From the IMG/VR virus record IMGVR_UViG_3300025602_000002, positions 38,718-102,717 of that record: 64,000 nucleotides of DNA; one strand, given 5' to 3'. The stretch comes from a virus. Its lineage: Duplodnaviria > Heunggongvirae > Uroviricota > Caudoviricetes. A program made the position numbers and the translations under genes. Positions within the stretch are counted from its first letter, which is position 1. Every line of letters begins with the position of its first letter. The notes beneath the pieces are model-generated. The model was not told the origin of the DNA. It did no database searches and worked only from the letters and a program-made list of their open reading frames with translations. Of this stretch, positions 6,198-55,556 are shown one piece after another.

Positions 6198-8624
6198 ATG
6201 GCTGAACAAGAAGTAACCTATAAAGTAAAATTAGATGAGACCGATTTAGCGTCGCAATTATCTAATGTACGAAACCAAATAGATGCGACTATTGGGCAGG
6301 CATTCGCTAGCCCCACAATTCCAAATATTGGTAACATGGATAGCGAAGGTCCTGGATTTTTTAATAGAGCTTGAGAAACTTTTGCAAATCAAGCTTCTAA
6401 CATGTCGCTCGGATTTGACCAGTTTAAGCAAGATGTCAGTAGTATACGAAATGTAATCTCCCCACCTAACCAAGCCCCTTCTTTTCAAATGCCTGACGTC
6501 CCTTGGGGGGCCACAATACCTAATACTGCATGAGGTGAACTGAAAGGTTCTTTAGGATTTGGATATGACCCCACACAACCCATAACTCATGGTGATTTCA
6601 AACAAAGATCATTAGAGGGTCTAGCAGAACGTGTTGGGGACTATAGTGGGAATTTCACATATACTACTTTAGGATCCTCTTTAGGATTTGGAGGTATTAT
6701 TCCAGCAATAGCTGGGATGTCAACTGGACTTATGTTGGACATGACCGCTAATGTGTTTGGCAGTGACATAACTACCCGAGATAATATGGCTAAAGGCTTT
6801 CAAGAATTGGGAAAATATTCTGGAATAAATCTATCTAGAAATGCTGCTAGAGACATAGCTGGAGATTTAGTAGATAGGGTTTCCGGATCAGAATTTAGAG
6901 GAAAAGGGTACTCTCTTGAAGAACTACAATCAAATGTTTTAGACTTTGGAGAAGCTGGAGGCTTTTCTAACGTACATGATGCTCAGGGATTTCAAGAAAC
7001 TGTAAAAGGTTTATTAGACAACGTAAGAACAGTAGCTCACGCTTTAGGTACTTTCCAAGAAGAAGCTGTCCAAATTATGGCTGAATTAGAACAAAGGGGG
7101 ATTGTCGGTACTGCCGATATGGGAACTTATTCTGCAAGAATGGCTGGCGGAGCTAGATTAGCTGGAATGAGCGGTGGAGCCTTTGCTCAAACTATGTTAA
7201 CTGGGGCTGACATGGCCATAGGGACTGGACTTTCTCAACAAATGGGAGCTTCTCTTGCTGGAGATTTAACTGGATACGCCAACCAACTTCTTAAAACTAA
7301 TTTAGGAAGCGAATTAATAACAGATTACGGGGGTGTAGGAGCAGTAGCTAATAAAATGCAACAGCAGCTTATGGGATATACTGGTGGACCCCATGCTTTT
7401 TTACAAACTTTAGGAAATACGTCAGGGCAACCCTTAATTTTAAATACTAATGAATTATATGGGGCTATTGGATCTAATATGAATGACCCCTTTAACTTTT
7501 TTAGAGCTTCTGCCAATCAATCTGCTAATATGAATGACAGAAAATCTTTTGAATTATCGTTAGGAGCCCTTGCTCCCGGTATAACTTTAGCTGACGCTAT
7601 GGGATCTCCAGACCTTGAATCAACAATAGGTATAATTAGCAGACAACAGGGTATCCCGGTACAGGATGTTGAACGTATGCTACTTCAACTTCCTTTTGCA
7701 AAAGAATCTAATATACTTAGTGGGGGTGACGCCTTAACTGAAGTAATTAAATCAAACTCAGATACTGAAACAGCTTTATATAAATTTGTAACCCAAACTC
7801 CAGGAGTGCTAGCAGTACCCTTTAAAGCTGTTGGTAATTTTCTTGCTGAAGGCGCTTCAAAGTTTTCTGATGCTATGGAAGATACAATAACTTCTTTAAA
7901 AGGATATGAAGTATTCAGGCCAAGTTCAGAGGCCAGATCTATGACGGAAGAAGATCTTGAAGAACGTTTAGACAATGCTACAACGATTATGGAGGGGGTA
8001 TCTGTTAGACGTCTAGCCTTACAAGAAAAAAAAGATAGAGCTTCAGGGAGTATAGCTAGAAGTAATCTGTTATTTCAAACTCCTCAACAAGAAAGGAATG
8101 CAAGAGCTGTCTTTAGTGAAAAAGTTATTCTTACAGAGGAAGAGAAATTAGCTGAAAAAGATATAGAACTATATAAAGTTATGATTTCACTTAAAGCTTC
8201 TGATACAGCTGCTATGGCTGAGATATTTCCAGATGATTTTGAAAAAGCTGCTTTTGGAGTAATGCTACGTACGAAAGAAAGATATGATTCTATTAAAGGC
8301 GGAGGATCTATAGATAATATAGAAATAAATTTAGAAGACAAACTTTCAAGACAAGAAGTTGCCAGTACCGTCAATGAGTTATATAGTACAGATAAATTAA
8401 TACAGCAATATTATGACCAACTACCTACTACACTTGTAACACAATTGGAAAAACGTAGAGAGTCTATGAACAATGATGAAAAATTTGCAAATGACTTATC
8501 TGTAATGGGGAACACTATGGAAGAAATGACAAAAAAGAGTACTACAGCCTTACTGAATATCGACCTTAATATTTCAGCATTAGTTTCTAATAAAGACCTA
8601 AACTCTAATGGGAAATCTGGATAA
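6198..8624 (+). CDS. Tape measure protein-like, 808 aa (TGA=Trp)
   Basis: ATG 6198 in frame with track ORF 6717..8624 through TGA at 6372 and 6531; Gly/Ala-rich, helical; follows the frameshifted chaperone. Confidence 0.7.
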
Positions 8625-8626
8625 TA

Positions 8627-10930
8627 ATGCAAGAAACTGTTAGAAATTTATCTAGTTTTGAACTATATCTAGAAGGAATTAAAGTTCCATTTTCTTCGAT
8701 ATCCATTAATGAAGTGGAAGGAGGTCTGCCGTCGGCTAACATGTCCTTCCCACTAGACTCTGGGGCTTTAAAGGTCTTGCCAGGAACTATTGTACAAGTG
8801 TTTGGTCCAAGTTCTAATGGTACTACAGAGAAATTAGTATTGTTATTTGAAGGGGATATTCAAAGCAAAAGTTATAGGAAAACCCCAGTGGGTAGAGATG
8901 TAACAATCAAATGCCAAAGCCTTTTAGCTGGTTTGTTTAAAACCTCCGTCTACTCCCCTACTTCGCTAGTAAGTGATCGTTATATAAATAAAACAGCATC
9001 AGCAAAAGCTTATATCATAAAGCCCGAGAATTTAAATACAGAATCTTCTAATTATAAATTAAATGTTTTAAAAAAAACCGAAGAAGTTTTAGATATTACT
9101 GTTGACGACGTAAATAGTATTAAATTAGATATATTTAAAATTTGAGGACTTTTATGGCAAGCCATCAATAATGATGACAATGTAAAAACTGGTAATTTTA
9201 TAAAATTAACTCATACGCTTAGTACTTATTTTGAAGTATTCGACGTATTATATGGGCTTAATGCACAATCTTTTAGAATAAGTGAATCTATATTTGCTTT
9301 TCCAAACCCTGAAAAAATTAATGCAAATAAATTAGATTTAATGAAAAAAATGATGGGTACCCCTAATATGAGTATTATTGAGTCGCCGCCTATTGGATTA
9401 TCGTCCATTATTTCTCAATTTTATAATCTTTTATTTTATAGAATGTTATACCCTGCAGCCTTTACAAATTCATATTCATTTTATACTACAAACGCTAGTC
9501 AAGTTCCTACAAGAATGTATTTATTACCGGATTTAGATAATTCCCCTCCTGCACTTTGTAACGTATTTTTTCCTAATCAATTAGATTCTCTTAATTTAGA
9601 CATTAATTACCAATCAATACCTACCAGGCTTACAGGCACTAGCACTACTCCTTTAGGAAAATATGAGGGCGTAGCTGGTCCTCTAACTACTTATTTACCT
9701 CACACCGTAGTGCCCTCAAATACTCCAATTTTTAAAGATGAGCTACATGGAGTAGACTCTGGATTTACAGAGGAAGAGCTATATAGGGGGGTTCGTAGTG
9801 AATTGTTTCAAATAAATGGGGATTTAATTTTTACTCTAATTGGCCAAGAAGCTTCTCCCGCATTTACAGAAGACTCTCCTTTTTTAACAGCTTTACATGA
9901 TTTTTCAGTACATGAATTTTCAAGAAAAAAATCTATGGGTAAATCTTGCAGTTTACAAAGTGAGTGGAACCCCCACAGAATGATAGGAGTTCCTGCCTTA
10001 ATTTTTGATATAGGAGCTCCATCTGTGACGGGAGTTATACACTCAATAATAACCTCCATCACTCCTAAATCTATATTTAGCAAAATTAATTTGAGAAACG
10101 CTAGAGTACTATATGATGAAGAATTAGATGGGCCCTTTTCTTCCACATCAACTTCCATTAATACTTTTAATAAATTTATTATTAATAATTTTACCAGCGA
10201 CCCCTATTTACCCATTAATAATCGTTTATATAATGAAGACCTCTATAACTTTGATAAAATAGGAATGGATACTTATAGTTATTTATTATTTGGTAAAGGC
10301 TCAAAAAGGGGTAAATTTTTAGATTTATCTAAAGCCGGAGCTCCTGCTAGTCCTCCATTTGTCAATAATCCTCCGTTTGTTAATTATAACGCTAACTTAG
10401 AAAGCATGAAGACTACTTCTAGAGTTGACCACTCCATTCTTCATTTTTTACGAGACTATTCTACTCCCGATAATTTATTAAAATCAAATGAATTAATAAA
10501 GGAAGATGATTCTTTGTCTGTAACCTATACTAAATATATGTATTTAGCCATTCAAAAAATAAAGAGTTTATATATACAAGCTAGACACTCTAAAACTAAT
10601 CTTCAAAAATTTACTGATAAAATTACTTGAAGAGATTTAATAGATAAGAATTCTTATTTAACATACTTAAACGTTAGCAACACTGGTAATAAAAAAGATT
10701 ATAAAGACCCTGCAACTTTACTTGATAAGGCCAATAATTTAAGGGGGCTTTTAATGGTAAAGTCTGAAGAGGAGGTTAGTACCAAATTTTCTCAATCAAA
10801 GTCTACAAAAGAATGAGTAGAAGCAGAGTTAAGGAAAACTACTTCAGATATGTTTTTACCTTACAATATTACTAGATACGCTCAAGTAATAGAGGCTTTT
10901 AAAACTACATTAAAGTCTGAGGTTGTCTAA
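8627..10930 (+). CDS. Baseplate hub / tail protein, 767 aa (TGA=Trp)
   Basis: Track ORFs 8627 and 9341 join in one frame through 3 TGA and end at TAA 10928; position after the TMP. Confidence 0.55.
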
Positions 10931-10941
10931 GGAGCACAGTA

Positions 10942-12060
10942 ATGACAGATCACGTATCACGAGCTATAAACGCTATACAAGATGAAATTAAAGGAAGTGT
11001 AAATAACCTTATTTCTCCATTTTTAAACGTAGGAAACCAACTATTAGGAACTCTTCTTCCAGATTTGGGTGTAGAAAAAACTTCACCTAATAACTTAGCT
11101 GAAGAAATAGAAAATATGACTGACGTTGGAGCAGTGCTTATGGTATACTCTAAAGACCCTGGAGAAGTAACTCATCGTTCTAATAAATTTTTCCTTCATT
11201 CCCTTAATTTTACATATAAAGAGAAGGCGCAATTAAATGAAACTTTTGATTCACCAGCTATTTCATTTTTTGGGGATTCAATAAGAATCTATAATTTTGC
11301 AGGAACAGCTATAGATTACGCAAGTGAAAGTGGGAGGGCTTGGGAACATTTTCATCAAAGTAGTTTAATAAAAATGTATGATGATATATTGCGCGGTACT
11401 AAATTAGTTCAAAATAACAGTATAGCCATTATGAAAATAATGAATCATACTATTTGGGGGTATCCTTTAAATTTTAGAGGCGGTTATAACGCTGCACAAG
11501 ATAAGGTAGCTAGCTTTTCTATGAGCTGAATAGTCTTAAAACACACCTTGACCTTTCCTAGTATAGTTACGGATGATAACTTAAAAACACTGTACACAAC
11601 AGTAGACGCAAGCGTAGATCAAGCTTACTTAAATAATATAAATAGTGTACTGGATAAAACAAATAAATTACTTATATTAAAAGAATACGATGTTAGTTTA
11701 GAGTCACTGCCTGATTTAGATCATATACCGTCAGCTTCTCTACAAAACCACTTAGAGGATCTAACGTCCTTAAATTTTTATGCGAAGGTTTCAGAAAATA
11801 TAAAAGCTTTACAAGATGATTATAAAAATAAGCTATCTGCCGGCATTTCCAATGTGTCAGCTGTATTGAGTACGCAATTTCCGGGTGGTTGAGATCAGAT
11901 AGACTCATTTTTTCAAGATTTAGGAAAATACTCTACTGGAGCATTTAGTACTGCGACAATTGATGAGAATGAATTTTTAAATTTTCAACTTTCTCTATTA
12001 ACTATTTTAGAAATAAAAAATAGATTAACAACTTTTAAAATACAAAACCTATTATCATAA
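10942..12060 (+). CDS. Putative tail/baseplate protein, 372 aa (TGA=Trp)
   Basis: Track ORFs 10942 and 11548 are in frame through 2 TGA; TAATG overlap with the next gene. Confidence 0.6.
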
Positions 12061-12776
12061 TGACTACTTTAAAACAAAAAGAATTAGAATTATTTAATCA
12101 ATATAGATCTGGCGACAATGAAGCTAGAACTAAATTATTAACCTCCCTTAAGCCTCTAATTAGGGGTCAGGCGAACAAATTTACTAATTCGGGACTTCCG
12201 CCAATGGCTATTGAGTTAGAGGCTCATAGGCTAGCTAGCGACTCTTTAAACACATATGATCCTAGCAAAGCTCAGTTAAATACTCATGTAACTAATTGAT
12301 TAAAGAAATTAAGTAGATTTGTTACTAATTATCAAAATGTTGGACATATACCAGAACCTAGAGCCTTAATTATAGGAAAGTATAATGCTATTTTTGATAA
12401 TTTAGAAGCTGATAAAGGTAGAGAGCCTACTATTACAGAGTTGGCGGATGCTATGAATTTGCCTCCAGTTGAAATCGAAAGACTACAAACAGAGCTTAGG
12501 AAGGATTTATCTATTTCTTTACCAGAGGATAAAGAGGATATAGGTGGCTTTTATTTTCATGCTAAACCTGGCAGTTTTAATAAATCAAAAGAAGCGTTGG
12601 AATTTACATACTTTGATGCTGATCCTATAGATAAAAAAATATTAGAATATACTTTTGGTATAGGTGGTCAGGGCATCTTAAGAAATAAAGATATTCAAAA
12701 AGAATTAAAACTAAGCGCTGCTAACTTAAAAAAACGAAAGGAAGAATTAGCTACTACTTTAGATAGTATCATATAA
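12060..12776 (+). CDS. Sigma-70-family RNA polymerase sigma factor, 238 aa (TGA=Trp)
   Basis: Region 2 LLTSLKPLI...YDPSKAQLNTHVTN(TGA)LKK resembles FDPxRGxKFSTYAxWWI; region 3 GREPTITELADAM; region 4 HTH-like C-terminus. Confidence 0.85.
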
Positions 12777-14839
12777 TGAGTATAATTACTAAATTAGGAT
12801 TAAATGATTCATTAAGTGCTCTTGGCATTTCGGGAGATACTTGTAACTCATCAGCAATCGCAGATAAGCTACAAGAAGCTACTGAGCAATTAGGGCAAGA
12901 TACTCAAGAAGCTATTAATTTAATTGCATCTAAGTTAGGTGGTAATTTCGTAATAACTATAGGAGCCCTCTTAGAGGATTTTGGAGGGGCTAGTTGAGGA
13001 GCTTTAAAAAATTCATTGTTTTCTAATTTACTACATGGGGATTTCTTAAGTTCTTGGGCGGGAGCAACATCTTTGCTTTTAACATTTGTACCAAGTACTG
13101 AGATTGTTTTATTATACTGGGCGGCACAGACTTTAGAAACCCAGCTACGAATACGTGATGAGTTTGCAAAAGCCTTATTAACTGAGTTAGATATTATTTT
13201 AGAATTTGTAAAAGCGTTACAAGGATTAAATGCGGGAGCTACTACTCCGGACTTTTTTGCTAACATTGCTAAAAGTCTACGACATATACAAATTGCTGAA
13301 AGAATAGTGGGAATAGAAAGGGGCAAACAATTAAATAAAAATGCTGAACAAGTTAATATTAATATTGATAATATTAAGGTTGCCAGATTAGAACTTCAAA
13401 ACGCTATCGACGATCTTACAAGTGAGCAATATAGTGCCATTTTACGAGAAGTTGAAGATCTTCATAATGAGTATGGATTAGAAAAACCCTTACTAACCAA
13501 TCCAGACGCTGCTATAGCTACTGGAGAGTGGTTAAACAATTGAATATCTTATTTTAATAGTCTTAGTTCTAGCGTAAAGGATAAATTTTTTGATGAAAAT
13601 GGGAAACCCTCTGATGATTTTAAAGAATTTTCTGCCAAACTTTTAAGACTATTTCCAGAGGTATTAAGAACATTATCATTATATACAGTTGTTTCAAATT
13701 CAACAAACATATTAGTTGAAAAGTTTCCTATAGTGCTCAGTCTTAGTAGTTGATCTAGGAAGCGTCTTAGGAAGTTATTACACCCACTTCGTTCTAGTGA
13801 GTGAAAGGATTTTATAGCATCTGATATTACGAGGACAGCTTCAAGTGTTTTTTCTGACCCAGCTACAAATAAAACTACCTGAAAACAACTGATGGTATTA
13901 GGGCAGGGAGCTGAAGCTGCTATTTTGGCTTTTCCTAGTTATTGAGATTTTATACAAGATAGCTCTAATCTTGGAAAAACACTACTTGACCCAGCTCTTA
14001 GACAACTAAGGGATGTTGAATCTGACATGATTGCTACAAAAAAGGCTGCTAGTCTTCACTCTAGCACTCATGGGCAAGTAAAGTTTAAATGAGTGTCTCA
14101 AATTTCTTCTGTTGATGCCGGACTAGCTGTGCTTACGGGTGAGAATTCTTTTTTTGAACGTAAATGAGGTATTAATCCTTTTACAATTCAATATGATTTT
14201 GAACAAGCAGGTATTGCATTAGAGTCGTTAAAAACTTATATTAATAATAAGCACGAGAATACTGAACCTGGAGATGTTGCTTTTGAGATTGCTCAAAAAT
14301 ACTTAGGACCTCTATCTTTTGATGTTTTAGGGCTTATTCATAACTCTACCCAAACTATTGCAGGAGTTCAGGCCGCTAGGGTAGCTTTGAGCGAACAGCA
14401 AGTATTAGATAGACAGGAAGCCGAATTATGTAATATATTTACAAGGACTGTAGAAAGTATAGAAGGGTTTAGTGCTATACAGCAGTATTTAGAAACTGTA
14501 ATTCAGAGTTTAGAAAGTGATTTATTAAATAATGGAGTTATAGCAAAGCTAAGAGACGGAAATCTTTCAGATTTAGCTGAAATTCTAGACACTGGAGCTC
14601 TCATCACTGAAGGAGTTAAATTAGCAAATTGTCTAATAAATAAAGATGGCGTAGTATCTACTAAGTTTTTAGAAAACTGAGCTGGATTTTTAGGTATTAG
14701 TATGTCTGACGAAGAGATAGCTAAATTTAAGGGAATAGAAAAATACAAAAATATGGTTTTTAAACAATTAATAGACACAAAAGATATGTTATACGCTGCC
14801 CTAAAAATACATACTGAAGAAGTTAACGAGGTTAGTTAA
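12776..14839 (+). CDS. Hypothetical (probably structural) protein, 687 aa, 9 in-frame TGA
   Basis: Track ORFs 12776, 13016 and 14387 share a frame; no TAA/TAG until 14837. Confidence 0.7.
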
Positions 14840-14840
14840 G

Positions 14841-15281
14841 GTGAGTTTAAGAGATATAAAATTAGTAAATTTTTCAGAAACTAGCAGCTCTGTCTCATTT
14901 ACCATTAGTTCTGTATTAAATCCAGTAATCGGTAGAGACAACTTAATACAAAGAATTGTTAAGAAAATTTTAACAGCTAAAGGCTCTAATGTTTATGATT
15001 CAACTATCGGAAGTTCTTTTGCTAATTTATTCCAAGTTACGTCTACTACTAGAATAAAAGAAATTGAAAATATTTTTCCTATATATTTGGAAACAATGGT
15101 AGAACAATTAAGAGACGAACAAGAATCTGAAATTTTAGAAGGAATCACAATACCTGACGGAGAATACTTAGAAAACATCATAATGGAGTCGGTCGCATAT
15201 GACGACACTTTTGGCGGATGGTTAGTCTCCCTACGAGTATTTACATTAAATAATTCTTCATTTTCATTAAGCATACCTTAG
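14841..15281 (+). CDS. Baseplate wedge protein (gp25/GpW-like)
   Basis: IGRDNLIQRIVKKILTAKGSNVYDSTIGS pattern; sits before the baseplate J-like gene. Confidence 0.7.
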   Translation: MSLRDIKLVNFSETSSSVSFTISSVLNPVIGRDNLIQRIVKKILTAKGSNVYDSTIGSSFANLFQVTSTTRIKEIENIFPIYLETMVEQLRDEQESEILEGITIPDGEYLENIIMESVAYDDTFGGWLVSLRVFTLNNSSFSLSIP

Positions 15282-15294
15282 GATAAAAAAAATT

Positions 15295-43794: not shown

Positions 43795-43819
43795 TTATAA
43801 TTATTGGTTATGTCCTTTA

Positions 43820-43828: not shown

Positions 43829-43843
43829 AACAATTTTTAAGAT

Positions 43844-43879: not shown

Positions 43880-43899
43880 CTTAACTTGAGCTTGCACAC

Positions 43900-45340: not shown

Positions 45341-45343
45341 TAG

Positions 45344-45541
45344 CTATTTGGCCTCTTCTAACGAAAGGACTCTATATTTCTTAATTATTCTTTTTAATTT
45401 TAATAAACTACTTCGAGCCATTTTGGCATATCTAACTTGCCATGTTTTGGCATATAATTGGTGAGCATTGCGAAAATTTGAAAATTCAATCGCTACGCTT
45501 TCATACGCTTCATTTAAATCACTAATTATTTCTTTATCCAT
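45344..45541 (-). CDS. Small basic protein (Hc1/histone H1-like family resemblance)
   Basis: AKMARSSLLKLKRIIKKYRVLS pattern. Confidence 0.45.
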   Translation of the reverse strand: MDKEIISDLNEAYESVAIEFSNFRNAHQLYAKTWQVRYAKMARSSLLKLKRIIKKYRVLSLEEAK

Positions 45542-46238
45542 TGCGTATATTGGTTATTGACGATCTCCAGCATTTTGAACAATAAGAGCAACTTTCTTTA
45601 TGCGCTAAAACCCCACTATCACATGGGCATTGTTCTTTAATTAATCTGGATTTCGCTCTTTCTTTTTGTTTTTTGGATATATTGAAAAAGACATTGAACG
45701 GTTCGGTTACTTCGTTAAATTCATCCGCCATTCCTGTATAGCAAAAGCCTATTCTATCTTTTCCAAATAATTTTCCTAATTTTATGTAGTTTTGAAGATT
45801 TGCATTATCAAAACTTAATAGAATTTTTGTAACGTTTTGTGTTTTTAAGAGCTGACTTATATAAGTATAATATTCAGGTTTTGTTAAATTTTTGGATATG
45901 ATAAAAAATTTAAAATCTAAATTTTGAATGAATTCCAAATGTTTTGGTTTAAAATCTCCTGATCCGTATAATCTTACGGGCATTTTTCCTAATCTTTTAT
46001 AAGATTTAGCTTTGCTTTTTGTCAGTTTTGTGTATTCAGTGTTCAGTTGCTGGGCGAACCCTTGTGGGTTTTCAGTTGCCCATTGTGCGTTTCTCGTGAT
46101 TTTATTGAGATAAGCAGAATAAATTCTTTCCATATTTTCGACATAACAGTATTCACATTTCTGTTCACATGTGAAATCTCTGTTAAAATCAACTGAAAGG
46201 ATTGTTTTGCTATTCTCTGTAAACGCACGCAACTGCAT
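45534..46238 (-). CDS. Radical-SAM-like / phage Gp88-like Fe-S protein
   Basis: CEQKCEYC (CxxxCxxC), VRLYGSGDF, C-terminal CPC...CSYCSKC. Confidence 0.65.
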   Translation of the reverse strand: MQLRAFTENSKTILSVDFNRDFTCEQKCEYCYVENMERIYSAYLNKITRNAQWATENPQGFAQQLNTEYTKLTKSKAKSYKRLGKMPVRLYGSGDFKPKHLEFIQNLDFKFFIISKNLTKPEYYTYISQLLKTQNVTKILLSFDNANLQNYIKLGKLFGKDRIGFCYTGMADEFNEVTEPFNVFFNISKKQKERAKSRLIKEQCPCDSGVLAHKESCSYCSKCWRSSITNIRNG

Positions 46239-46251
46239 AGGCTACTGTGGT

Positions 46252-46488
46252 TTAGAATACAGCGTGGCTCTCGTTGGTGTACTTCATATCTATACCCTTC
46301 ATATAATGTTCATGGGTGATTCCTACGATTGACCTCAATCTTGAATCTCTAATTTTCCTTGATATATCCAGGGCGTATATTATGCCGTCAACTGCCGGGT
46401 CTGCCGGTACTTTGACATATAATATCCTGTTGGTACTTTTTTTCTTTCCGGTCTCTAAAACTATCTTGTAATGTTTATATTTTCTCAT
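46252..46488 (-). CDS. Hypothetical protein
   Basis: 78-aa ORF in the operon. Confidence 0.55.
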   Translation of the reverse strand: MRKYKHYKIVLETGKKKSTNRILYVKVPADPAVDGIIYALDISRKIRDSRLRSIVGITHEHYMKGIDMKYTNESHAVF

Positions 46489-46638
46489 TATTAACTGTCA
46501 CTTGAGTTGTCGCTAGGTTCTTCGGTTGTCAAATCAATAACTTTGGTTTCTGCTAATAGGATTGCAATTTTTGCAAAAGCTATTATTAGCATCAGTCCAA
46601 TTGTTTTGCCTAGCTTGACGTCCATTTCTTTTAGTGCC

Positions 46639-47529
46639 TCATACTACATTCATTTTAGCTATTTCATCTATAAATTTTTGCCCTTGTTCAGGATTTAAAA
46701 ATCTAATCCATTCGGCATAACCTCTTAATTGCTGGTATTCCCTTTCTGTTATGTCGACGTTTCGTTTTTGATGTAAAATAGCTCTAAATATTTTTCGTTT
46801 ATATTTTGGAATACCGTATTTGTCGTTTATTACGATTCCAGTTACTGACATCCGTCTATGCGGCCTCATAATTCTAGTCTTTTTGTAATTTAGTTTAAAA
46901 TGATATTTTTGTACCATTTTGGTAATTTCTATTATATGATCCAAAAGCGGATAGCGTTTGGAGAGATGACTAAAACTAATATCGTCAGCGTATCTAGTAA
47001 CTATTAGTTTATTTTGTTTTGCAAAGTCTTGTAAATCTATATCCATTTTGTAACATACTAAATTAGCCATAGCCGGACTCGTAGGAGATCCTTGCGGTAA
47101 TGCCCCATTTAGCGTAATTAAAGACGTAAGTAGTCTTGCGTCTGCTTCATCCCATTCAAGGGTGTGTTGGTTATTATAACTATGAAGCCTCTTAATCATT
47201 TCAGGTAAAACCATGCTAGCTGTTACAGAATCGAAAAAACCTCTTAAATCTATATTTAATAAAGTCTTATTTCCAAAATGTCGTTTAGCACCTTCTTTTA
47301 CGCTGATATTACGTCTAAACCCTACCGCTATCGGGTGGGTCTTAAATTTATATAAGAAATTATTTAAAAACTTTGTTTGAACTTGTTTTAAAGCCTCAGA
47401 CGGCTCATTAAGCCACCTTAATTTTCCAGACTTTTTTGTAATCGGGAACCTTCTATACTGCTTTATTTTAGTAGTTACTAATTGTTCTATTTCAGTTTTT
47501 GGTGTTTCTATTAATTCGTAAATTGTCAT
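46639..47529 (-). CDS. Retron-type reverse transcriptase
   Basis: KKSGKLRW...P, GFRRN...GAKRH (region X-like), IDLRGFFDSV, LPQGSPTSP, TRYADDISFS, VTG (region Y). Ends at TGA. Confidence 0.85.
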   Translation of the reverse strand: MTIYELIETPKTEIEQLVTTKIKQYRRFPITKKSGKLRWLNEPSEALKQVQTKFLNNFLYKFKTHPIAVGFRRNISVKEGAKRHFGNKTLLNIDLRGFFDSVTASMVLPEMIKRLHSYNNQHTLEWDEADARLLTSLITLNGALPQGSPTSPAMANLVCYKMDIDLQDFAKQNKLIVTRYADDISFSHLSKRYPLLDHIIEITKMVQKYHFKLNYKKTRIMRPHRRMSVTGIVINDKYGIPKYKRKIFRAILHQKRNVDITEREYQQLRGYAEWIRFLNPEQGQKFIDEIAKMNVV

Positions 47530-47858
47530 TTGTTAAAAAGATTATATTGCCTTAATAAAGCGTCTGCGTCCTCTTCAAGAGATACACAATACTTACTAAG
47601 AACTTCTAGTAAATCATTTTCTGTTATCATACTGGAGGGGGTAAGTCCTAAATGTATAATTTTTAATTCTGGAACATTGCTATGAAATGTATAAAATATA
47701 GTATAAACCATATTAAATGCATTCTTTTTCACTGCAATATCTATTTTTGTTATAAATTTAGTATTTAAATGTACACAGGCCCCGTCCTTAGTTAGATTCG
47801 GTAGATGAGGACTTATCTTCTCCATCATTTGAATCTTTAATTGTTTCGTTGTCTTCAT
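47526..47858 (-). CDS. Hypothetical protein upstream of the RT
   Basis: 110 aa; TGA stop overlaps the RT ATG (ATGA). Confidence 0.6.
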   Translation of the reverse strand: MKTTKQLKIQMMEKISPHLPNLTKDGACVHLNTKFITKIDIAVKKNAFNMVYTIFYTFHSNVPELKIIHLGLTPSSMITENDLLEVLSKYCVSLEEDADALLRQYNLFNK

Positions 47859-48269: not shown

Positions 48270-51200
48270 ATGGCAGATTTATTAAATTACAACAAACAGA
48301 ACTCAAATATCCAACAGGCTATCCTAAAGTCTATAAATAACGTTTTTCCAGTCACCGCCGGTGATAGAACTCTAGAAATAGCTAATTTAAAAATAGTTGA
48401 CAATCTTAGTTCTGACGATTTCCCTAAACAGAAAGAGTTAAAAATCAATAGGCGTAGCTGACAAATACCTTTATACGCTGATATACTTTTAAAAGATAGC
48501 ACTGGAAAAGTTATTAACCAAAAAAAGAATGCTAAGATAGGAAATATCCCTAAATTAACAAATAGGTTTACTACTATTATTGAAGGAAATGAATACCAAA
48601 CCGTTAATCAACTTCGAAGAAAGCCGGGTATATATGCTCGTATTAAGAAGAATGGTGAGTTAGAAAATGAATTCAATTTAGAAAAAGGTCTTAATTTTAA
48701 AATGCAATTAGATCCTATTTCTGAAAAATTTGTAGTTATTTTCGATAATAGAAAATATAGACTCTGAACTTTATTAAATTTATTAGGTGTAGGCGATGAG
48801 GCTATGCGTAAGGTTTGGGGTACCAAACTATTAGAAGTTAATAAGAAGAATGCTCTCAACACAGAAATTTCTGAAATGACTTCTATTTTCACTAAAATTT
48901 ATCATAGAGATCCTAAAGACTACTCAGAAGTTCTTACCAAATTAAAAGACTATTTTGAAAACTTCACTAAAGTAGACCCCAACACTACCCTCTTAACTTT
49001 GGGTCGAAAACACTCTAATGTTAATGGACAAGCTTTACTAGACTCTTCTAAGAAATTATTAGATATTAATAAAGGTACAGCAGAACCAGATGACAGAGAT
49101 AGTTTAGTTTTTAAACAAATTTTATCAGTAGATGACTTACTTATTAATCATTTTGATAAACAAAAAGACTCTCTTACTAAAAAATTACGATCATCTATGA
49201 TGTTCAAAGATCAAGTACGAGAAATAGTAAGTGCTGGTACTTTTTCAAAACCTATTAAACTATTTTTTACTACTGGCGATTTAAGCTCAACTCCTCCACA
49301 AACAAATCCTGTAGCTATTGTATCCGAATGAAGAAAAACCTCTCCTATGGGTACTGGTGGAATAAAAAGTAAGCACTCAATTACTGAAGAAACTAGGGAT
49401 GTACAGCCTACACACTTAGGGTTTATAGACTCTACAGCTTCTCCAGAAGGTTCAAAAATTGGAGTAACTTTAGGAATGACCTCTGAGGTTGTTAAAGAAG
49501 GTAATGAGCTGAAATCTCCAGTATATAATACTTCTGGTAAACTAGTATATATTAGTCCTTTAGAATTCTTTGAAAGTTATGTAGTGTACCCAGATCAATA
49601 TGAAATATCTGGCTCTACTATTACTCCTAAATTTAAGTCAATACACGCAATGTATAAGGGTGAACTTATACGTATTGCCCCAAGTAAGGCTAATTATTAT
49701 ATAAGGTCTCCAAGATCAATGTTTTCTTTTGCCGCTAATGCTATTCCATTTTTAGACGCAGTTCAGGGTAATAGAAGTGCTACTGGTGCTCGTATGATGA
49801 CTCAAGCTATGGCTTTAGATAATAAAGAAGCTCCTTTAGTACAAACCTATAGAGATAAAGATTCTACTTATGAAAAGATTCTTGGTAATTTTCTTAATCC
49901 AGTATACGGACCTAATTTAAAAGGGAAACCTCGTACTGGAACAGTTAGTAAAATTACTAAAGATTATATTTATATCATTGGAAAAGATGGATCTAAAACT
50001 AAAAAAGGTTTATATAACAATTTCCCATTAAATCAAGATGGTTATTTAGATTCTACTCCTTTAGTAAACGTGGGAGATGAGGTTAATAGTAAAACTATAT
50101 TAGCTGAAAATAATTATTCCAGTGGAGATACCCTGTCTATAGGAAAAAATTTAACTACAGCCTATATGACTTATAAGGGTTATAATTATGAAGATGGCGC
50201 TGTAATTACAGAATCAGCTGCTAATAAACTTTCTCATTCTATGCTCCATAAAGTAAATGTATTTTTTACTCCTAAATTATCTGCATTTAGTTTAGAAAAA
50301 TTTAGTGCCTGGTACCCAGACGCTATAACCCCAGATAATAGAAAAAAATTAGATAGCTCTGGTATTATTAAGGTAGGAGAAACAGTTAATCCAGAAGATG
50401 TATTAATTGCATTTTTAGTTAAGCGTGAAATGGACGACCATGAGGTAGCTTTACATAAATTAAGTAAATATACTTTTGGACAATTTAATAAAAATTTAAC
50501 TGAATGGTCTGAAGATGAGCCGGGAGTGGTAACTGATGTAGTTAAGACTGGTAGAAACATAGATATTTATGTTAAATCTACCCATCCTTTTAAAGAAGGT
50601 GATAAACTTTCTGGGCGTTATGGTAATAAATCTATTGTTACTAAAATTATTCCAGACGCAGATGCCCCTCATAGAGAGGATGGTACCCCTATTGACATAA
50701 TGTTAAATGCTCATGGAGTTCCTTCTCGTATGAACATTGGTCAAATTTTAGAGACGGCAGCTGGTAAAATTGCTAAAAAAACTGGTAAACCTTATATTGT
50801 TAAGAATTTTAATAATCCAGAAGGTGACAGATCTGCAGAAGTTTTAGCAGAAATGAAAGAACTTGGTATAGAACCTGATGAAACTTTAACAGATGGTAAA
50901 ACTGGCAAAGCTTTTGATAATCAAATTTTTGTAGGACAACAGTATTTTTTCAAACTTCGACATATAGTCAACAAAAAATTAGGGGCTCATGGTATCGGCC
51001 AATATGATATAGACGAACAGCCTGTAGGAAAGGGTTCACAGCATGTAGGGATTTTAGATAATTATGCATATCTGGCCCACGGAGCAAAAGCCAATTTACG
51101 AGATATTGGAGAGATTAAAGGAAGGTCTAACGATGAATACTGAAGAGACCTACAATTGGGACTGCCGCCTAGTAAGCCTTCTAGAAACTTTGTATTTGAA

Positions 51201-54200
51201 AAGCTAACAACCTATATTCAAGGTCTAGGTGTTAATGTTACTAAAAAAGGTAATAAACTACAAATTTTACCATTAACTGACAAAGATGTTACTAAGCTGT
51301 CTAATGGCGCATTAGAAAAGCCAGGAACTATGTTAGTTGGTAAAAATTTAATGACTAGAGCCGGTGGATTATTCGATGAAAAGATTACTGGTGGAATTAG
51401 CGGCACGTTATGGTCTCATATTAATTTAGCAACTAATTTACCTAATCCTATGTTTGCTCCTGCAATTACTAAAATATTAGGTATTACTGACAAGAAATAT
51501 AGCGACATTATAGATGGGAAATTAAAGCTAAAAGGTAAGTCTGGAATTCCGGCTATTATCTCTGCTTTAGAAGCCTATGATGTTGACGCTGAGCTTGTTA
51601 AGGCTACAGCAGCTTTAAAAACTGCCCCTGTATCCTCGGTGAATAGTTTAAATACTAAGGTTAGGTATCTACAAAATTTAAGTAGAATGAAATTAAACCC
51701 AAAAGAAGCCTATACTATTACTAAAATACCAATATTACCTCCTAAATTTAGACCTATCTATTCTTTACCTACTGGTGATTTAATGACTAGCGATATCAAT
51801 AAACATTATAGAGATATTGGGGTTATAAACACAGCTTTAAAAAGTACTAAAGATATTATAGGCGCAGATGAGGTTTTAAGAGCTAATAGATCATTGTATG
51901 ATTCTGTAAGAGCTATGCAAGGTTTTATAGAACCTATAACCTATGGCGGTGAAAAGTATAAAGGGATTTTAGAAGAAATAGGAGAAAGTAAAAAAGGCTT
52001 AATACAAGGAAAATCCTGGGGCAAGCGTCAAGACTTAAGTGCTCGAAGTACTATCATTGTTGACCCCGATTTAGGTCTAAATGAGGTAGGTACTCCATTT
52101 AAAATAGCTTATTCTATTTATAAACCTTTTATTATAAAGAATTTAAAGGAATTTGGATTAAAAGCTACAGCCGCAGTAAGGGAATACAAAGATGAAACTG
52201 ATTTAGCAAAATCAGCTCTCGTTGATGAAATGAAACGTAGACCCGTAATTATGAACAGAGCTCCTACACTTCATAAGCATGGAGTTCAAGCTTTTAAACC
52301 TCAATTAGTAGATGGTAAATCTATTAGAATGAATCCTCTTGTTATGAGAGGTTTCAACGCTGATTTTGACGGCGATACTATGTCTGTAATGGTACCTGTT
52401 TCTGCTGAATCTGTAGAGGAAGCTAAAAACATGATGCCTAGCAAGATCTTATTTAAGCATGGAGATAACTCTATTGTTCCAGAGATTAGTAAAGAATATG
52501 TTTTTGGAATACACCAGCTAAGTCTTATTAAAGAAAAATCTAAAGAATCTTTTAAATCTATTTCTGACGCTAAAAAAGCCAAAATTCCATGGACTACTCA
52601 GTTTGATCTTAACGGTACAAAAGTGACTATAGGGCAGTTTTATATTAATTCTGAATTACCTGAAAAATTAAGGGATTACGAACGAGTATTAACTGCTAAA
52701 GTGTCTGAAAAACTTTTAACCACTATCGCAACTACTTACCCTAATTATTTTACAGATGTAATTAATTCTTGGAAATCTTTAGGAGCTATGCAGGCCACTT
52801 TACATGGCAATACCTTATCATTAAATGACTTTGTAATAGATAGAGCCTATAGAGATGATCTTTTAAAAGAAAAACTTCCTGCAATTAATAAATTAAAAGG
52901 GCAGACTAGAATTGACTCTTTAAACAAATTAACTATAGAAGTTCAAAAAGCTCAGGATAAAAGTGTACGGGGTAGAAATAACATCTACGACATGTTGGAT
53001 TCAGGCTCATTTGGTAAAACTGATTCTGTACGACAAATTTTATCTATGCCTGGGGTTCTAATGGACACCAAAGGCCGTCCTATCCCCTATCCTGTGTTAA
53101 AATCGTATGGAGAGGGTTTAGATACCCCTTCTTATTTTGCGTCCTTATATGGAGTTCGTAAAGGTAATATTGACAGGTCCGTAAATACAGAGCAATCTGG
53201 TGCTTTAAACAAAGCGTTATTAAACATTAATAGACGTTTGTTAATAACTGTAGAAGATTGTAATACTCGTAAAGGTTTAGAAATTGGCGTAAATGACAAG
53301 AATGTTATAGATCGCATGTTACTTAACTCTGTATCGGGTGTGGGGAAAAGAAATGACATTGTAGATTCAAATGTTTTATTAAGAGCTAAAAAGGATAAAT
53401 TAAAAACTCTATGGGTTAGATCGCCATTAACTTGCGAAGCAGTTGAAGGGATTTGTCAAGCCTGTTATGGGTTAATGCCTAATGGAAAATTATCTGTATT
53501 AGGAGAAGCGGTAGGAGTATTAGACGGACAGGCCATTACCGAAAGATCTACACAATTAGTTATGCAAACTTTCCATACAGGGGGAACTGCCTTAGGTGGC
53601 GGTGGTGGTGGTGCTGTAACTGGTTTCCCACGTTTAAAACAATTATTTTTTGTACCTCAAAAATTAAGTGGAAAAGCTACGTTATCTACTGTAAAGGGGA
53701 CTATAAAATCTATTAAGAAAAATCTTACTGGAGGGTACTCCGTTAGGATAGAGGGTTATGGGGAAAAGAATGATAAAACCTTTACTATACCTTCCGGTAG
53801 ACTGCCTATTGTAACAGAAGGAGTTAAAATAGGAATTGGAGACGCCATATCTGATGGAATTATAAAACCTCAGGAACTTGGAGAATTAAAGGATCACTTA
53901 TCAGCTCAGAAGTATTTAGTAGAAGAAGCTTCAAAAGTTTATGGGGGAAAATTCTTTAATAAAACATTTGAAACCGTAATTCGTGGAATTAGTGATAATG
54001 CCCAAATTACAGTAGCTCCTGAGGGTAGCGGATTCCTAAGAGGAGATAGAACTACTATAAGTTATTTAAACGCTCTAAACAAAGATAGAAAAAAAGAAAA
54101 ACTTCCATTAATCGAATATGACGCATATTTTAAATCAATAGACTCATTAAATGCTGATAGCGACGATTGGTTAACTAGAGTTAGTGCGAACAGAGTAAAA

Positions 54201-54329
54201 CGGGGCTTAACTGTAGGAGCTGCAAAAGGCTTATGAGCTAACATTCGAGGTAAAGACCCTGTACCAGCGTTCATTTATGGAGATAACTTTGGTAAAAACA
54301 CTAATTATCAAAAGGGGGAATTCTTTTAA
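48270..54329 (+). CDS. rpoBC: Fused beta/beta-prime multisubunit-type RNA polymerase, 2019 aa, 5 in-frame TGA
   Basis: Four track ORFs share one frame. Beta motifs GDKLSGRYGNK, GVPSRMNIGQILE; beta-prime motifs GKRQDLSARS, NRAPTLHK, FNADFDGDTM, TQLVMQTFHTGG; TAA at 54327. Confidence 0.92.
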
Positions 54330-54332
54330 TAA

Positions 54333-54824
54333 ATGCCCTTTTTTAAAAAGGCAGATAACCCTATAGTCGTTTGACGACAATATGAATTTAATGCTGAGGC
54401 CTTAGATGGCCGTATTATATTAATTTCAAATGAGGAGCCTTGCGCCCTTATATCCCACCACCCTAATAAACAATGGGGGTACAATATTGGTACTATAAAA
54501 TTAGTTAGTGCTGGAGAAGGTTGGCCTGAGGTAGAACGATTAGGTCATGCTAAAGAGCTACCTAATGTGTTTTACGAACTTGTACCTAAAAATGAATACC
54601 AAACCTATCTAAAAATACATCCAGAATATAAAGATAATTTAGAAACTGCCTCTGAACCAAAGGTAGTTCCTCCGATCAAACAGCCGAAACCTACAATTAT
54701 AGATATACCAAAAATAAAAAAAGAGGTTCCGGGACTTACCAAAAAACGATTAACTAAAACACGCTTAGCGAAAGATTCGGAAGCTCCAATATATACATAT
54801 AAGACTCCCGGACAACGTTTCTAA
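54333..54824 (+). CDS. Hypothetical protein, 163 aa, 1 in-frame TGA
   Basis: ATG 54333 in frame with track ORF 54567. Confidence 0.55.
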
Positions 54825-54833
54825 GGAGGCTCA

Positions 54834-55556
54834 ATGCAACACAACTCTCAAGACTGTAGTAATAAACACCAAGCATTACGACAATTGCACCATTTATTTT
54901 TTTCTTCAAAATCTTCTCCTGTAAAATTAGGGGATTTGAAATTTTTAACTAAAGCTCAGGAAAAATTTTATAAAGCTATGGAGAAGAAAACAATAATTTT
55001 CTCAAAAGGTCCTGCAGGTACAGGTAAGACTCATTTATCAGTGCACTTCGCTTTAAAACAATTAGCAGATAAAGAATCTCCTGTCGATGGAATAGTAATT
55101 TGTAAACCTTTAATTTGCGTAGATAATGAAAAATTCGGATGATTAAAGGGGGGTATGAAAGAGAAAACTGATCCTTTTATGAACCCATATTGGCAAAAGT
55201 TTGAAAAAATAATTGGGAAACAAATAACAGATATTTTGGAAACCACTGGTATTATTAATATTGTGGTACCAGCTTTTTTAAGAGGTATGGAATTTGAAAA
55301 CAAAGTAGTTTTATATGACGAATCCCAGAATTCCTCTTGTACAGCTATGAAGACCTTTTTAACTAGATTAGGAAGAGATTCTAAAATGATTATAACTGGA
55401 GATCCAAAGCAAAGTGATAAGGATGATATCAGCGGTTTAGAAGACGCCATGGCACGTCTATCCAAAATAAAAGATATTACTACTGCAAACTTTACCAGGG
55501 AGGATATTGTTAGGCACGGCTTGATACGAGAGATATTAGACTGTTACGAAGACTAA
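54834..55556 (+). CDS. phoH: PhoH-family ATPase, 240 aa, 1 in-frame TGA
   Basis: GPAGTGKT; EKFG(TGA)LKG at the LGFLPG motif; FLRG, DESQN, FLTRLG, GDPKQSD. Confidence 0.92.

What the first reader, a model, noticed from the sequence alone, without database searches (positions are those of the whole stretch)
6198..55556. Two genetic codes in one genome: UGA=Trp confined to tail, RNAP, sigma and PhoH genes
Seen: about 70 in-frame TGA (hand count 71) in 17 + strand genes. Reading through them gives long ORFs ending in TAA/TAG, often with TAATG coupling. TGA falls where Trp or another aromatic is expected: sigma region 2.4, the FN3 W..Y motif, DGxxIW repeats, and PhoH G[F]L. In contrast, 35 minus-strand ORFs checked read through intact in the standard code; 33 end in TAA/TAG and two end in TGA, one as an ATGA overlap typical of UGA=stop. 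Established: stop-codon recoding biased to late genes is known in phages of standard-code hosts. Inference: UGA acts as a translational gate on virion and transcription genes.
Basis: partly seen in the sequence, partly recalled or inferred. Interest (0 to 1): 0.9.

Follow-up and report, generated by a model that had tools for sequence, protein, structure and literature searches.

The report
Partial UGA-to-tryptophan recoding in jumbo phage

Summary
I count 70 in-frame TGA in 16 + strand ORFs: 63 in the tail/baseplate block 6198-31022, 5 in a fused RNA polymerase, and 1 each in a small ORF and PhoH. TGA means Trp. Across 32 TGA columns aligned to 79 related phage loci, the cells are W 446, Y 77, F 69, and no Gly or Cys. 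TerL, sigma W434 and GDP-mannose dehydratase columns are invariant W.

The split is not by strand. Outside the window, a minus-strand glycan-synthesis block is also TGA-rich. Holin, amidase, volactin, portal and major capsid genes are TGA-free. Early-type genes use only TGG, and about 15-19 of them stop at TGA, so the host almost certainly uses the standard code.

The decoder lies in the window at 31933-32029. It is a 97-nt Trp-like tRNA(UCA) whose long extra arm copies the Trp anticodon loop (UCCAA).

A 210-kb relative has the same layout, including the tRNA at the same place. Three standard-code relatives and one distant high-GC phage have no such tRNA.

This is a new member of a known kind (Borges et al.). 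The 'translational gate' reading is plausible but not shown. The scan had already noted this recoding on another window of this genome, and the two-arm tRNA on other genomes.

The parts
6198..31022 (+). Tail/baseplate/fibre block of 14 ORFs; 13 carry 63 in-frame TGA. It includes baseplate protein 14841-15281 (TGA-free), baseplate J 15295-18435 (7 TGA) and a tail-fibre-like ORF 20999-22561 (5 TGA).
   Evidence: ORFs, TGA counts; Pfam, PHROGs; collinear with G001, where TGA and TGG interchange
12060..12776 (+). Phage sigma factor inside the tail block, with 1 TGA at codon 80
   Evidence: Pfam Sigma70_r3. The TGA aligns with the second W of ATWWIRQ (sigma70 W434) in PDB sigma factors. It is the homologue of Arash gp10.
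26236..30141 (+). Collagen-repeat tail fibre of 1301 aa with 15 TGA. Ten lie in C-terminal DGxxIW-type repeats, where every W is TGA.
31029..31057 (+). Promoter-like site TTGATA-17-TATATT in front of the TGA-free cassette. It overlaps the only + strand copy of the box TTTACCTTAA (31035-31044); the other 10 copies are on the minus strand, 6 of them directly upstream of the GGTATAAGA motif.
   Evidence: Consensus matches only; the 12-mer is not enriched.
31098..37829 (+). TGA-free cassette (16 TGG, 0 TGA): holin 31289-31696, amidase 32064-32636, volactin-like actin 34027-35007, portal 35765-37630
   Evidence: The same cassette in G001 has 18 TGG and 1 TGA.
31933..32029 (+). tRNA(UCA), 97 nt, G73, encoded CCA, Trp-like acceptor stem, anticodon stem and T arm. 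The long variable arm GCCGG-GGUCCAAG-CCGGU displays the Trp anticodon-loop sequence. This is the UGA decoder.
38042..47858 (-). Minus-strand genes with no internal TGA (32 TGG). The RT 46639-47529 and ORF 47526-47858 stop at TGA.
48270..54329 (+). Single 2019-aa fused beta-beta' RNA polymerase with 5 TGA (codons 64, 166, 354, 958, 1989), all read through
   Evidence: Pfam Rpb2 domain 3 spans codon 354. Codon 958 is W in Arash gp206 and Vibrio phage D69, both fused beta-beta'N in the standard code, and homology continues after codon 1989. A 2019-aa alignment to G001 has 60.5% identity.
54333..54824 (+). 163-aa ORF of unknown function with 1 TGA at codon 14
54834..55556 (+). PhoH-like ATPase with 1 TGA at codon 103
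   Evidence: Pfam PhoH 5.5e-55. The TGA aligns with F of GFLPG in 3b85.
5320..5329 (-). One of three window copies of the early-type motif GGTATAAGAA (also 48241-48250 and 60657-60666). The 9-mer core GGTATAAGA has all 20 genome copies on the minus strand, none in a recoded block.
   Evidence: G001 has 21 copies of GGTATAAGA, all on the minus strand.

Best explanation
The window is part of a 205,518-bp jumbo phage genome that uses two readings of UGA. In a fixed set of gene blocks, TGA and TGG are interchangeable tryptophan codons. These blocks are tail/baseplate with a late sigma factor, the fused RNA polymerase and PhoH, and, outside the window, terminase, other virion genes and glycan-synthesis enzymes. 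In the remaining genes TGA is absent from reading frames and is used as a stop. These are mostly minus-strand replication, nucleotide and tRNA genes behind a GGTATAAGAA promoter-like motif. UGA is decoded by the phage's own tRNA(UCA) at 31933-32029. This is a Trp-type tRNA whose extra arm copies the Trp CCA anticodon loop, most likely so that the host TrpRS still charges it. The phage encodes neither TrpRS nor a release factor. The tRNA lies in a TGA-free cassette (holin, amidase, volactin, portal), so it can be made without suppression. The phage RNA polymerase, late sigma and most tail genes cannot be completed until it is present. Expression of the recoded set is therefore conditional on the tRNA. 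Shown: the codon meaning, the partition of the genome, the tRNA and its family, and conservation of the layout. Inferred: charging by host TrpRS, the order of expression, and any adaptive gating.
For: TGA = Trp. Sigma codon 80 is the sigma70 W434 column. GMD codon 242 is an invariant W in three PDB homologues. The three TerL TGA columns are W in 83, 97 and 86 of 97 homologues, and three of those genes translate by table 11. Twenty-three columns against three mainly standard-code relatives (one, L101, has its own TGA at 3 of them) give 36 W in 56 cells. Thirty-two columns against 79 IMG/VR relatives give W 446, Y 77, F 69, L 49, relatives' own TGA 59, and no G or C.

Trp budget. TGG alone is 0.42-0.87% of codons in recoded blocks. 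It rises to 0.74-1.43% with TGA (1.13-1.43% in five of the six blocks), against 1.2-2.0% in five of the seven non-recoded blocks; the other two are lower at 0.86% and 0.24%.

Partition. TGA is 153 of 294 TGR codons in recoded blocks and 8 of 390 elsewhere. Fifteen to nineteen non-recoded genes stop at TGA.

Decoder. ARAGORN and Rfam both find it. It resembles the phage tRNA-Trp(CCA) and has G73. The extra-arm loop UCCAA recurs in 34 phage tRNA(UCA) genes with 33 different stems. It occurs in 32 of 49 long tRNA(tca) genes and in none of 51 long Leu/Ser/Tyr/Phe tRNAs.

No RF-1 domain and no class Ib aaRS is encoded.

Conserved layout. Relative G001 (210 kb, TerL 52% identical) is collinear and is recoded in the same gene sets at mostly different W positions: TGA/TGA 12, TGA/TGG 35, TGG/TGA 17. 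It has a 98-nt two-arm tRNA(UCA) at the same site after the tail block. Four relatives that are not recoded lack a tRNA(UCA).
Against: The long extra arm and a tRNA-Sec Rfam score of 48.5 (gathering cut-off 47) leave open some charging by SerRS. The window's extra-arm loop is 8 nt (GGUCCAAG), not the usual 7. Genes with 15-23 UGA need very efficient suppression against host RF2, and no RF2 antagonist was found. For gating specifically: TGA is not placed early in genes (KS p=0.35). There is no weak-termination context after TGA. The recoded blocks and the tRNA cassette both carry TTGnnn-17-TATATT-like sites, so they may be transcribed together. The promoter 12-mer is not enriched above chance. 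The host is unknown; related contigs binned with Bacteroidota MAGs are only a weak hint.
Confidence: 0.8

Rival explanations
1. Passive codon capture. Once a suppressor tRNA-Trp(UCA) is present during part of the infection, AT-biased mutation turns TGG into TGA wherever it is tolerated, that is, in genes translated while the tRNA is abundant. The pattern would record expression timing and level and would have no regulatory purpose.
For: The genome is 36% GC. Other NNR codon pairs are 75-88% A-ending, while TGR is 52% in recoded blocks, as expected for an unfinished drift. TGA and TGG positions turn over freely between G000 and G001. TGA has no positional bias and no context bias. Recoding is patchy on the TerL tree, needing at least 3 changes. 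The major capsid and portal genes, likely the most highly expressed, avoid TGA.
Against: The same gene sets are recoded, and the same tRNA-bearing cassette is TGA-free, in two phages about 50% identical in protein. This points to a maintained partition. RNA polymerase and the late sigma are recoded in both. This rival is compatible with the mechanism given above and differs only on purpose.
Confidence: 0.4
2. The host itself reads UGA as an amino acid (table 4 or 25), so the phage simply follows its host.
For: A few related contigs are binned with CPR (Dojkabacteria) MAGs. High read-through of 15-23 UGA per gene would be easy without RF2.
Against: About 150 early-type genes carry 382 TGG against 8 doubtful TGA, and 15-19 of them end at TGA. 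The phage carries its own tRNA(UCA) as well as tRNA-Trp(CCA). No TGA column shows Gly. Close relatives use the standard code. Dojkabacteria are, to my knowledge, not among the lineages known to use table 25 (Gracilibacteria and Absconditabacteria).
Confidence: 0.03
3. UGA is read as something other than Trp (Ser through the long arm, Sec, Gly or Cys), or the frames are pseudogenes or assembly errors.
For: The tRNA has a class-II-like long arm and passes the Rfam tRNA-Sec threshold by 1.5 bits.
Against: The aligned columns are 62% W and 82% aromatic, with S 3, G 0 and C 0. The acceptor/T branch is 7/5, not 8/5. The 168 TGA counted in the recoded blocks rule out SECIS-dependent Sec decoding. The frames stay open for up to 2019 codons and are conserved in G001.
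Confidence: 0.03
4. Recoding mainly insulates late genes from other translation contexts, for example against use by satellites or co-infecting phages, or against host-forced premature expression, rather than timing the phage's own programme.
For: Only indirect: the partial, block-wise recoding and the privately encoded decoder. Borges et al. raise related ideas.
Against: Nothing in the sequence tests it. The lysis genes, whose premature expression would be the most harmful, are TGA-free here.
Confidence: 0.1

Closest known systems
Alternatively coded (code 4, TGA to Trp) phages of gut microbiomes, e.g. the Agate and Jade clades (Borges et al., bioRxiv 10.1101/2021.08.26.457843; later Nat Microbiol 2022, from my knowledge)
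   Same: In-frame TGA aligns with Trp. Only part of the genes are recoded and early genes stay compatible with the standard code. A suppressor tRNA(UCA) is encoded. Code use is inconsistent within clades. The code-change machinery is written in the standard code next to the lysis cassette.
   Different: The genome is a 205-kb jumbo phage with its own fused RNAP and two sigma factors. Lysis genes are TGA-free here, whereas Borges et al. found lysis genes preferentially recoded. There is no phage RF1 or TrpRS, unlike Jade. The decoder has a second, CCA-bearing arm.
TAG to Gln (code 15) crAss-like and Lak phages (Peters et al. 2022, PMC9523058; Borges et al.)
   Same: The principle is the same: a stop codon is reassigned in late genes of a phage infecting a standard-code host, with a phage suppressor tRNA. 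Metaproteomics has validated code 15.
   Different: The codon and amino acid differ. This genome also carries a tRNA(CUA), but TAG=Q gives no gain in coding density.
Genome-wide table 4 of Mycoplasma and Spiroplasma
   Same: UGA is read as Trp by a tRNA-Trp(UCA).
   Different: There all genes use UGA and RF2 is absent. Here about half of the genome avoids UGA in frames and uses it as a stop.
Two-anticodon-arm phage tRNA-Trp(UCA), noted earlier by this scan on other genomes (e1-1601599, e1-1840197, e1-1849610, e1-5349151). I found no paper describing it. A jumbo-phage survey reports 'introns' in tRNAs of recoded phages (PMC13037316); I suspect, without having tested it, that some of these are the same feature.
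   Same: UCA anticodon loop CUUCAAA, G73, Trp-like stems, and a variable-arm hairpin presenting UCCAA.
   Different: The window's copy has an 8-nt loop (GGUCCAAG) rather than the usual 7-nt NUCCAAA. It sits alone between holin and endolysin rather than in the tRNA array.
Salmonella phage Arash and Vibrio phages D69/D181 (standard-code relatives with a bacterial-type RNAP)
   Same: Fused beta-beta'N polymerase, a sigma factor embedded among structural genes, and homologous portal, capsid and terminase genes.
   Different: They use the standard code. At 5 of 11 aligned TGA columns they have W. Their beta' C-terminal half is a separate gene.

Membership tests
Stop-codon-recoded phage, TGA to Trp (code 4 type) | Many in-frame TGA that restore long, homologous ORFs | tested here: met
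   70 TGA in 16 ORFs in the window. Coverage rises from 0.81 to 0.91 genome-wide. Pfam domains span TGA sites.
Stop-codon-recoded phage, TGA to Trp (code 4 type) | TGA columns align with Trp in standard-code homologues | tested here: met
   W 446 of about 720 residue cells in 32 columns. TerL, sigma and GMD columns are invariant W.
Stop-codon-recoded phage, TGA to Trp (code 4 type) | A phage-encoded suppressor tRNA with anticodon UCA | tested here: met
   31933-32029. It is present in the recoded relative G001 and absent from four relatives that are not recoded.
Stop-codon-recoded phage, TGA to Trp (code 4 type) | A subset of genes, presumed early, stays compatible with the standard code | tested here: met
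   382 TGG against 8 TGA in non-recoded blocks, and 15-19 TGA stops. Timing itself was not measured.
Stop-codon-recoded phage, TGA to Trp (code 4 type) | The host uses the standard code | tested here: inconclusive
   The host is not identified. The evidence is internal (TGA stops in early genes) plus a weak binning hint to Bacteroidota.
Stop-codon-recoded phage, TGA to Trp (code 4 type) | Trp found at UGA sites in the protein | not testable with these tools
   Needs proteomics.
Genome-wide table 4 or table 25 organism | TGA used as sense in essentially all genes; Gly at TGA columns for table 25 | tested here: not met
   TGA is 2% of TGR codons in half of the genome. There are no G cells at TGA columns.
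Selenocysteine decoding | tRNA-Sec with an 8/5 acceptor/T branch, and rare UGA sites aligned with Cys or Sec | tested here: not met
   The branch is 7/5. The recoded blocks hold 168 TGA sites with no Cys column. The Rfam tRNA-Sec score is only 1.5 bits above the cut-off.
Two-anticodon-arm tRNA-Trp(UCA) | CUUCAAA anticodon loop, G73, Trp-like stems | tested here: met
Two-anticodon-arm tRNA-Trp(UCA) | A variable-arm hairpin whose loop is N-U-C-C-A-A-A, with covarying stems across members | tested here: met
   34 arms with 33 stems. The window copy has UCCAA in an 8-nt loop. G001 has GUCCAAA on a 6-bp stem.
Two-anticodon-arm tRNA-Trp(UCA) | Charged with Trp by host TrpRS through the decoy arm | not testable with these tools
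   Inference only.

The most novel reading that the evidence does not exclude
The recoding is part of a conserved, self-reinforcing developmental switch. A UGA-free cassette, behind a promoter that carries an upstream box (TTTACCTTAA) otherwise seen only on the minus strand, mostly beside the early-type motif, delivers a Trp-tRNA(UCA). The tRNA's decoy CCA arm recruits host TrpRS. Only then can the phage's own fused RNA polymerase (5 UGA) and late sigma (1 UGA) be completed and drive the heavily recoded virion and glycosylation genes. A phage tmRNA, present only in the two recoded genomes of six compared, would absorb the ribosome stalling caused by read-through of host UGA stops.
Probability: 0.2. 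Interest if true: 0.75.

Novelty: new member of a known kind. Interest (0 to 1): 0.5.

Why it matters
It extends TGA-to-Trp phage recoding from gut phages to a family of large environmental (reportedly marine) phages with their own transcription apparatus. It supplies the missing decoder for a recoding already noted on this genome. It also offers a compact comparative system. Collinear relatives differ in code. A decoder tRNA sits at a fixed locus. A conserved split separates UGA-permissive from UGA-free genes. Together these let the open questions be tested: why phages recode, how the suppressor gets charged by a standard-code host, and how RF2 is outcompeted. For annotation, genomes of this family need a mixed-code gene call. 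Table 11 breaks about 50 genes, and table 4 wrongly extends about 15.

Tried and rejected
Single-protein searches with the baseplate J protein in IMG/VR and with the 687-aa tail protein in the 5.8-billion protein set found no relatives.

TAG=Gln: no gain in coding density, and no convincing in-frame TAG in 43500-48400.

Phage RF1/RF2 (PF00472) and TrpRS (PF00579): no match in the genome.

The base after sense TGA (A 52, G 64, T 25, C 12) does not differ much from the base after TGG, so there is no selection for leaky contexts.

TGA is not shifted towards gene starts relative to TGG.

The promoter 12-mer TGTTATATTTAA and the 10-mer GGTATAAGAA with one mismatch are not enriched in the window over shuffles. 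Only the strand exclusivity of the exact GGTATAAGA motif, and its conservation in G001, carry weight.

The RT at 46639-47529 as a diversity-generating retroelement: no template/variable repeat pair in the window or the genome.

Rfam at a relaxed threshold on the ORF-poor stretch 43700-45700 gave only meaningless miRNA-like hits.

The search for the exact anticodon stem GGTCTTCAAAACC missed G001's tRNA, which has a different stem. It was found only after fetching the genome.

Full report
**What the window is**

The window is bases 38718-102717 of a single 205,518-bp IMG/VR virus record. CheckV puts it at 97% complete, and it is 36% GC. It encodes 29 tRNAs and a tmRNA. Its nearest cultured relatives, at about 30% protein identity, are Salmonella phage Arash and Vibrio phages D69/D181.

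**Checking the observation**

Under table 11, the + strand of 6198-31022 and 48270-55556 is a litter of short ORFs. Under table 4 it becomes 17 contiguous ORFs ending in TAA or TAG, four of them joined by TAATG overlaps. I count 70 in-frame TGA in 16 of these ORFs:
- 63 in 13 tail-block genes;
- 5 in a 2019-aa RNA polymerase;
- 1 in ORF 54333-54824;
- 1 in PhoH.

Genome-wide, greedy ORF coverage rises from 0.81 to 0.91 under table 4, and only in certain blocks. Reading TAG as sense adds nothing.

The window's minus-strand genes are intact in the standard code. A reverse transcriptase (46639-47529) and the ORF before it (47526-47858, ATGA overlap) end in TGA. In the relative G001, homology to the RT covers 298 aligned residues, about the length of the table-11 product.

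**What the recoded genes are**
- a sigma factor (12060-12776);
- a baseplate protein and a baseplate J protein;
- tail-fibre proteins, including a collagen-repeat fibre with 15 TGA;
- a fused beta-beta' RNA polymerase;
- PhoH.

All five polymerase TGA are sense. Pfam Rpb2 domain 3 spans codon 354. Codon 958 lies inside a beta-beta' fusion that Arash and D69 encode as one standard-code ORF with W at that column. Homology continues past codon 1989.

**Which amino acid TGA encodes**

| Comparison | Result |
|---|---|
| Sigma codon 80 vs PDB sigma factors | second W of ATWWIRQ (sigma70 W434) |
| PhoH codon 103 vs 3b85 | F of GFLPG |
| GDP-mannose dehydratase codon 242 (outside window) vs three solved homologues | invariant W of DYVEAMW |
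| Phage Arash, 11 aligned TGA columns | 5 W, plus one Y and one F |
| Three TerL TGA columns vs 97 homologues | W in 83, 97 and 86 |
| Three relatives (L099-L101), 23 columns | 36 W in 56 cells |
| 79 related IMG/VR loci, 32 columns | W 446, Y 77, F 69, L 49, relatives' own TGA 59, S 3, G 0, C 0 |

Three of the TerL homologue genes translate by table 11, so their W codons are TGG.

The Trp budget agrees. Recoded blocks have 0.42-0.87% TGG. This rises to 0.74-1.43% once TGA is added (1.13-1.43% in five of the six blocks). Five of the seven non-recoded blocks have 1.2-2.0%; the other two, blocks F and M, are lower at 0.86% and 0.24%.

Gly, Cys, Ser and Sec are excluded as the main reading.

The split is not by strand. 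Outside the window, a minus-strand block (genome 20976-31631) carries 20 internal TGA. It encodes GDP-mannose dehydratase, five glycosyltransferases and an AsnB-like enzyme. Terminase, several virion genes and a 1970-aa multi-glycosyltransferase (23 TGA) are also recoded.

Conversely, the + strand cassette 31098-37829 has 16 TGG and no TGA (p about 8e-6 at the local TGA share). It encodes holin, amidase, a volactin-like actin and the portal. The major capsid gene is also TGA-free.

Over the genome, TGA is 153 of 294 TGR codons in recoded blocks and 8 of 390 elsewhere. The 8 are mostly artefacts of 5' extension or of small ORFs. Fifteen to nineteen genes of the non-recoded set end in TGA.

A table-4 or table-25 host would not leave such a pattern.

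**The decoder**

ARAGORN and Rfam find a 97-nt tRNA with anticodon UCA at 31933-32029. It lies between a small ORF after the holin and the amidase. Every other tRNA, and the tmRNA, is on the minus strand.

The tRNA has these features:
- G73 and an encoded CCA end;
- a 7/5 acceptor/T branch;
- acceptor, anticodon and T stems close to the phage's own tRNA-Trp(CCA).

Its 23-nt variable region forms a hairpin, GCCGG-GGUCCAAG-CCGGU.

An unbiased IMG/VR scan for long-armed tRNAs with this anticodon stem-loop returned 61 distinct variable regions. Thirty-four are hairpins whose loop is N-U-C-C-A-A-A, which is the anticodon loop of tRNA-Trp. They sit on 33 different stems. The pentamer UCCAA occurs in 32 of 49 long tRNA(tca) genes and in none of 51 long Leu/Ser/Tyr/Phe tRNAs from the same contigs.

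I reached this before consulting earlier notes. The scan had already described the same 'two-anticodon-arm' design on other genomes. I found no paper on it. A jumbo-phage survey mentions 'introns' in tRNAs of recoded phages; I suspect, without testing it, that some of these are the same feature.

The genome has no RF-1-domain protein and no TrpRS. Charging by the host enzyme is therefore the likely route, with the extra arm as a stand-in for the lost C34. This step is inference.

**Comparative evidence**

TerL has more than 180 relatives at 43-60% identity in metagenomes. Of 79 IMG/VR loci around TerL, about 19 carry in-frame TGA inside homologous segments. In-frame TAG never appears.

On a TerL tree the recoded loci are confined to one clade of 30 rows. 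Within it they are interleaved with standard-code loci and need at least 3 changes of state.

I fetched five large relatives whole.

G001 (210 kb, TerL 52% identical) is collinear with this genome and shares its layout:
- It is recoded (coverage 0.815 to 0.889).
- It has a 98-nt tRNA(UCA), with extra arm CCUUGU-GUCCAAA-GCAAGG, at the same site after the tail block.
- Its tRNA-bearing cassette is nearly TGA-free (18 TGG, 1 TGA).
- It has a fused, recoded RNAP and a tmRNA.

Trp codon pairs between the two genomes are TGA/TGA 12, TGA/TGG 35, TGG/TGA 17 and TGG/TGG 116. All of G001's TGA fall in + strand genes; all but one lie in our recoded blocks, the exception being one codon in the tRNA cassette. 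The codon positions therefore turn over, while the partition of genes is kept.

G002, G003 and G004 (standard code) and the distant high-GC G005 have no tRNA(UCA) and no tmRNA.

**Transcription signals (weak evidence)**

The motif GGTATAAGA occurs 20 times in this genome, always on the minus strand and never in a recoded block, and mostly just upstream of non-recoded genes. G001 has 21 copies, again all on the minus strand.

The + strand blocks (tail, tRNA cassette, RNAP, head) are each preceded by a TTGnnn-17-TATATT site. The tRNA cassette's site also holds the only + strand copy of a box, TTTACCTTAA. The other 10 copies are on the minus strand, and 6 of them lie directly upstream of GGTATAAGA.

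None of these short AT-rich patterns is enriched over shuffles when mismatches are allowed. I treat them as leads only.

**Gate or drift?**

Mechanically, the polymerase, the late sigma and most tail genes cannot be finished without the tRNA, and the tRNA's own cassette does not need it.

Whether it is an evolved timer is open:
- TGA is not placed early in genes.
- TGA is not in leaky contexts.
- Its share of TGR codons (0.52) lies below the 0.75-0.88 A-ending share of other NNR pairs.
- TGA swaps freely with TGG between relatives.

All of this fits passive capture under AT pressure in genes translated while the suppressor is abundant. In favour of maintenance, the same gene sets are recoded and the same cassette is UGA-free in two phages about 50% identical.

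Unlike the gut phages of Borges et al., where lysis genes are preferentially recoded, the lysis genes here are UGA-free.

How 15-23 UGA per gene are read efficiently against RF2 is unexplained.

**Verdict**

TGA = Trp is as firm as sequence can make it. The 'two codes in one genome' description is right, but the phenomenon is known. The same recoding was reported by this scan from another window of this genome, where no decoder was found. This window supplies the decoder.

I file it as a new member of a known kind. Three features are worth following up: the two-arm suppressor tRNA at a conserved locus, the conserved gene partition, and a possible link to a phage tmRNA.

Noticed in passing
window 58178-58551 (-): Phage-encoded tmRNA (Rfam 85 bits; ARAGORN tag GRPAVKLAA). 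Of six related large phage genomes compared, only the two UGA-recoded ones (this one and G001) carry a tmRNA. This may be a link to ribosome rescue after read-through of UGA stops, or it may be shared ancestry.
   Followed up: partly
window 46639-47858 (-): A 296-aa reverse transcriptase (RVT_1, 4e-22) preceded by a 110-aa ORF with an ATGA overlap; both end in TGA. It is conserved in G001. No template/variable repeat pair was found in the window or genome, so it is probably not a classical DGR. Its type is unknown.
   Followed up: partly
window 43795-45533: A 1.7-kb stretch without a convincing ORF and with raised GC (0.42 against 0.33). There is no Rfam match. It lies between an intein-containing gene and a GP88-like gene.
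   Followed up: partly
window 41455-43794 (-): A 779-aa gene with an intein splicing domain (Pfam 6.5e-08, below the gathering cut-off) interrupting it. The G001 homologue aligns over only 328 aa, so the intein may be absent there. Several TerL relatives also carry inteins or homing endonucleases.
   Followed up: no
window 34027-35007 (+): A volactin-family actin homologue (Pfam Volactin 3e-70) in the TGA-free cassette just upstream of the portal gene. It is 64.5% identical in G001.
   Followed up: partly
genome 105393-105469 (-), window coordinates 66676-66752 (outside the window): A tRNA with anticodon CUA (amber suppressor type), although TAG=Gln gives no gain in coding density and 34 genes end in TAG. 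G002, a standard-code relative, also has one.
   Followed up: partly
window 1082-2566 (-) and 3379-3915 (-): A CCA-adding enzyme/poly(A) polymerase-type nucleotidyltransferase with an HD domain, and a peptide deformylase. Both are translation-support genes in the non-recoded set.
   Followed up: no
genome 195436-201348 (+), outside the window (locus L097:5436-11345): A 1970-aa protein with 23 TGA that combines GT1, PIG-L deacetylase, epimerase-like and GT9 heptosyltransferase domains. Together with the recoded minus-strand GMD/GT block, it suggests a large, late-expressed glycosylation programme.
   Followed up: partly
L108 compared with L107 (IMG/VR relatives): In the mostly standard-code locus L108, four TGA align with Cys codons (TGT/TGC) of its sister L107. 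This is probably an alignment or read-through artefact, but I did not check it.
   Followed up: no
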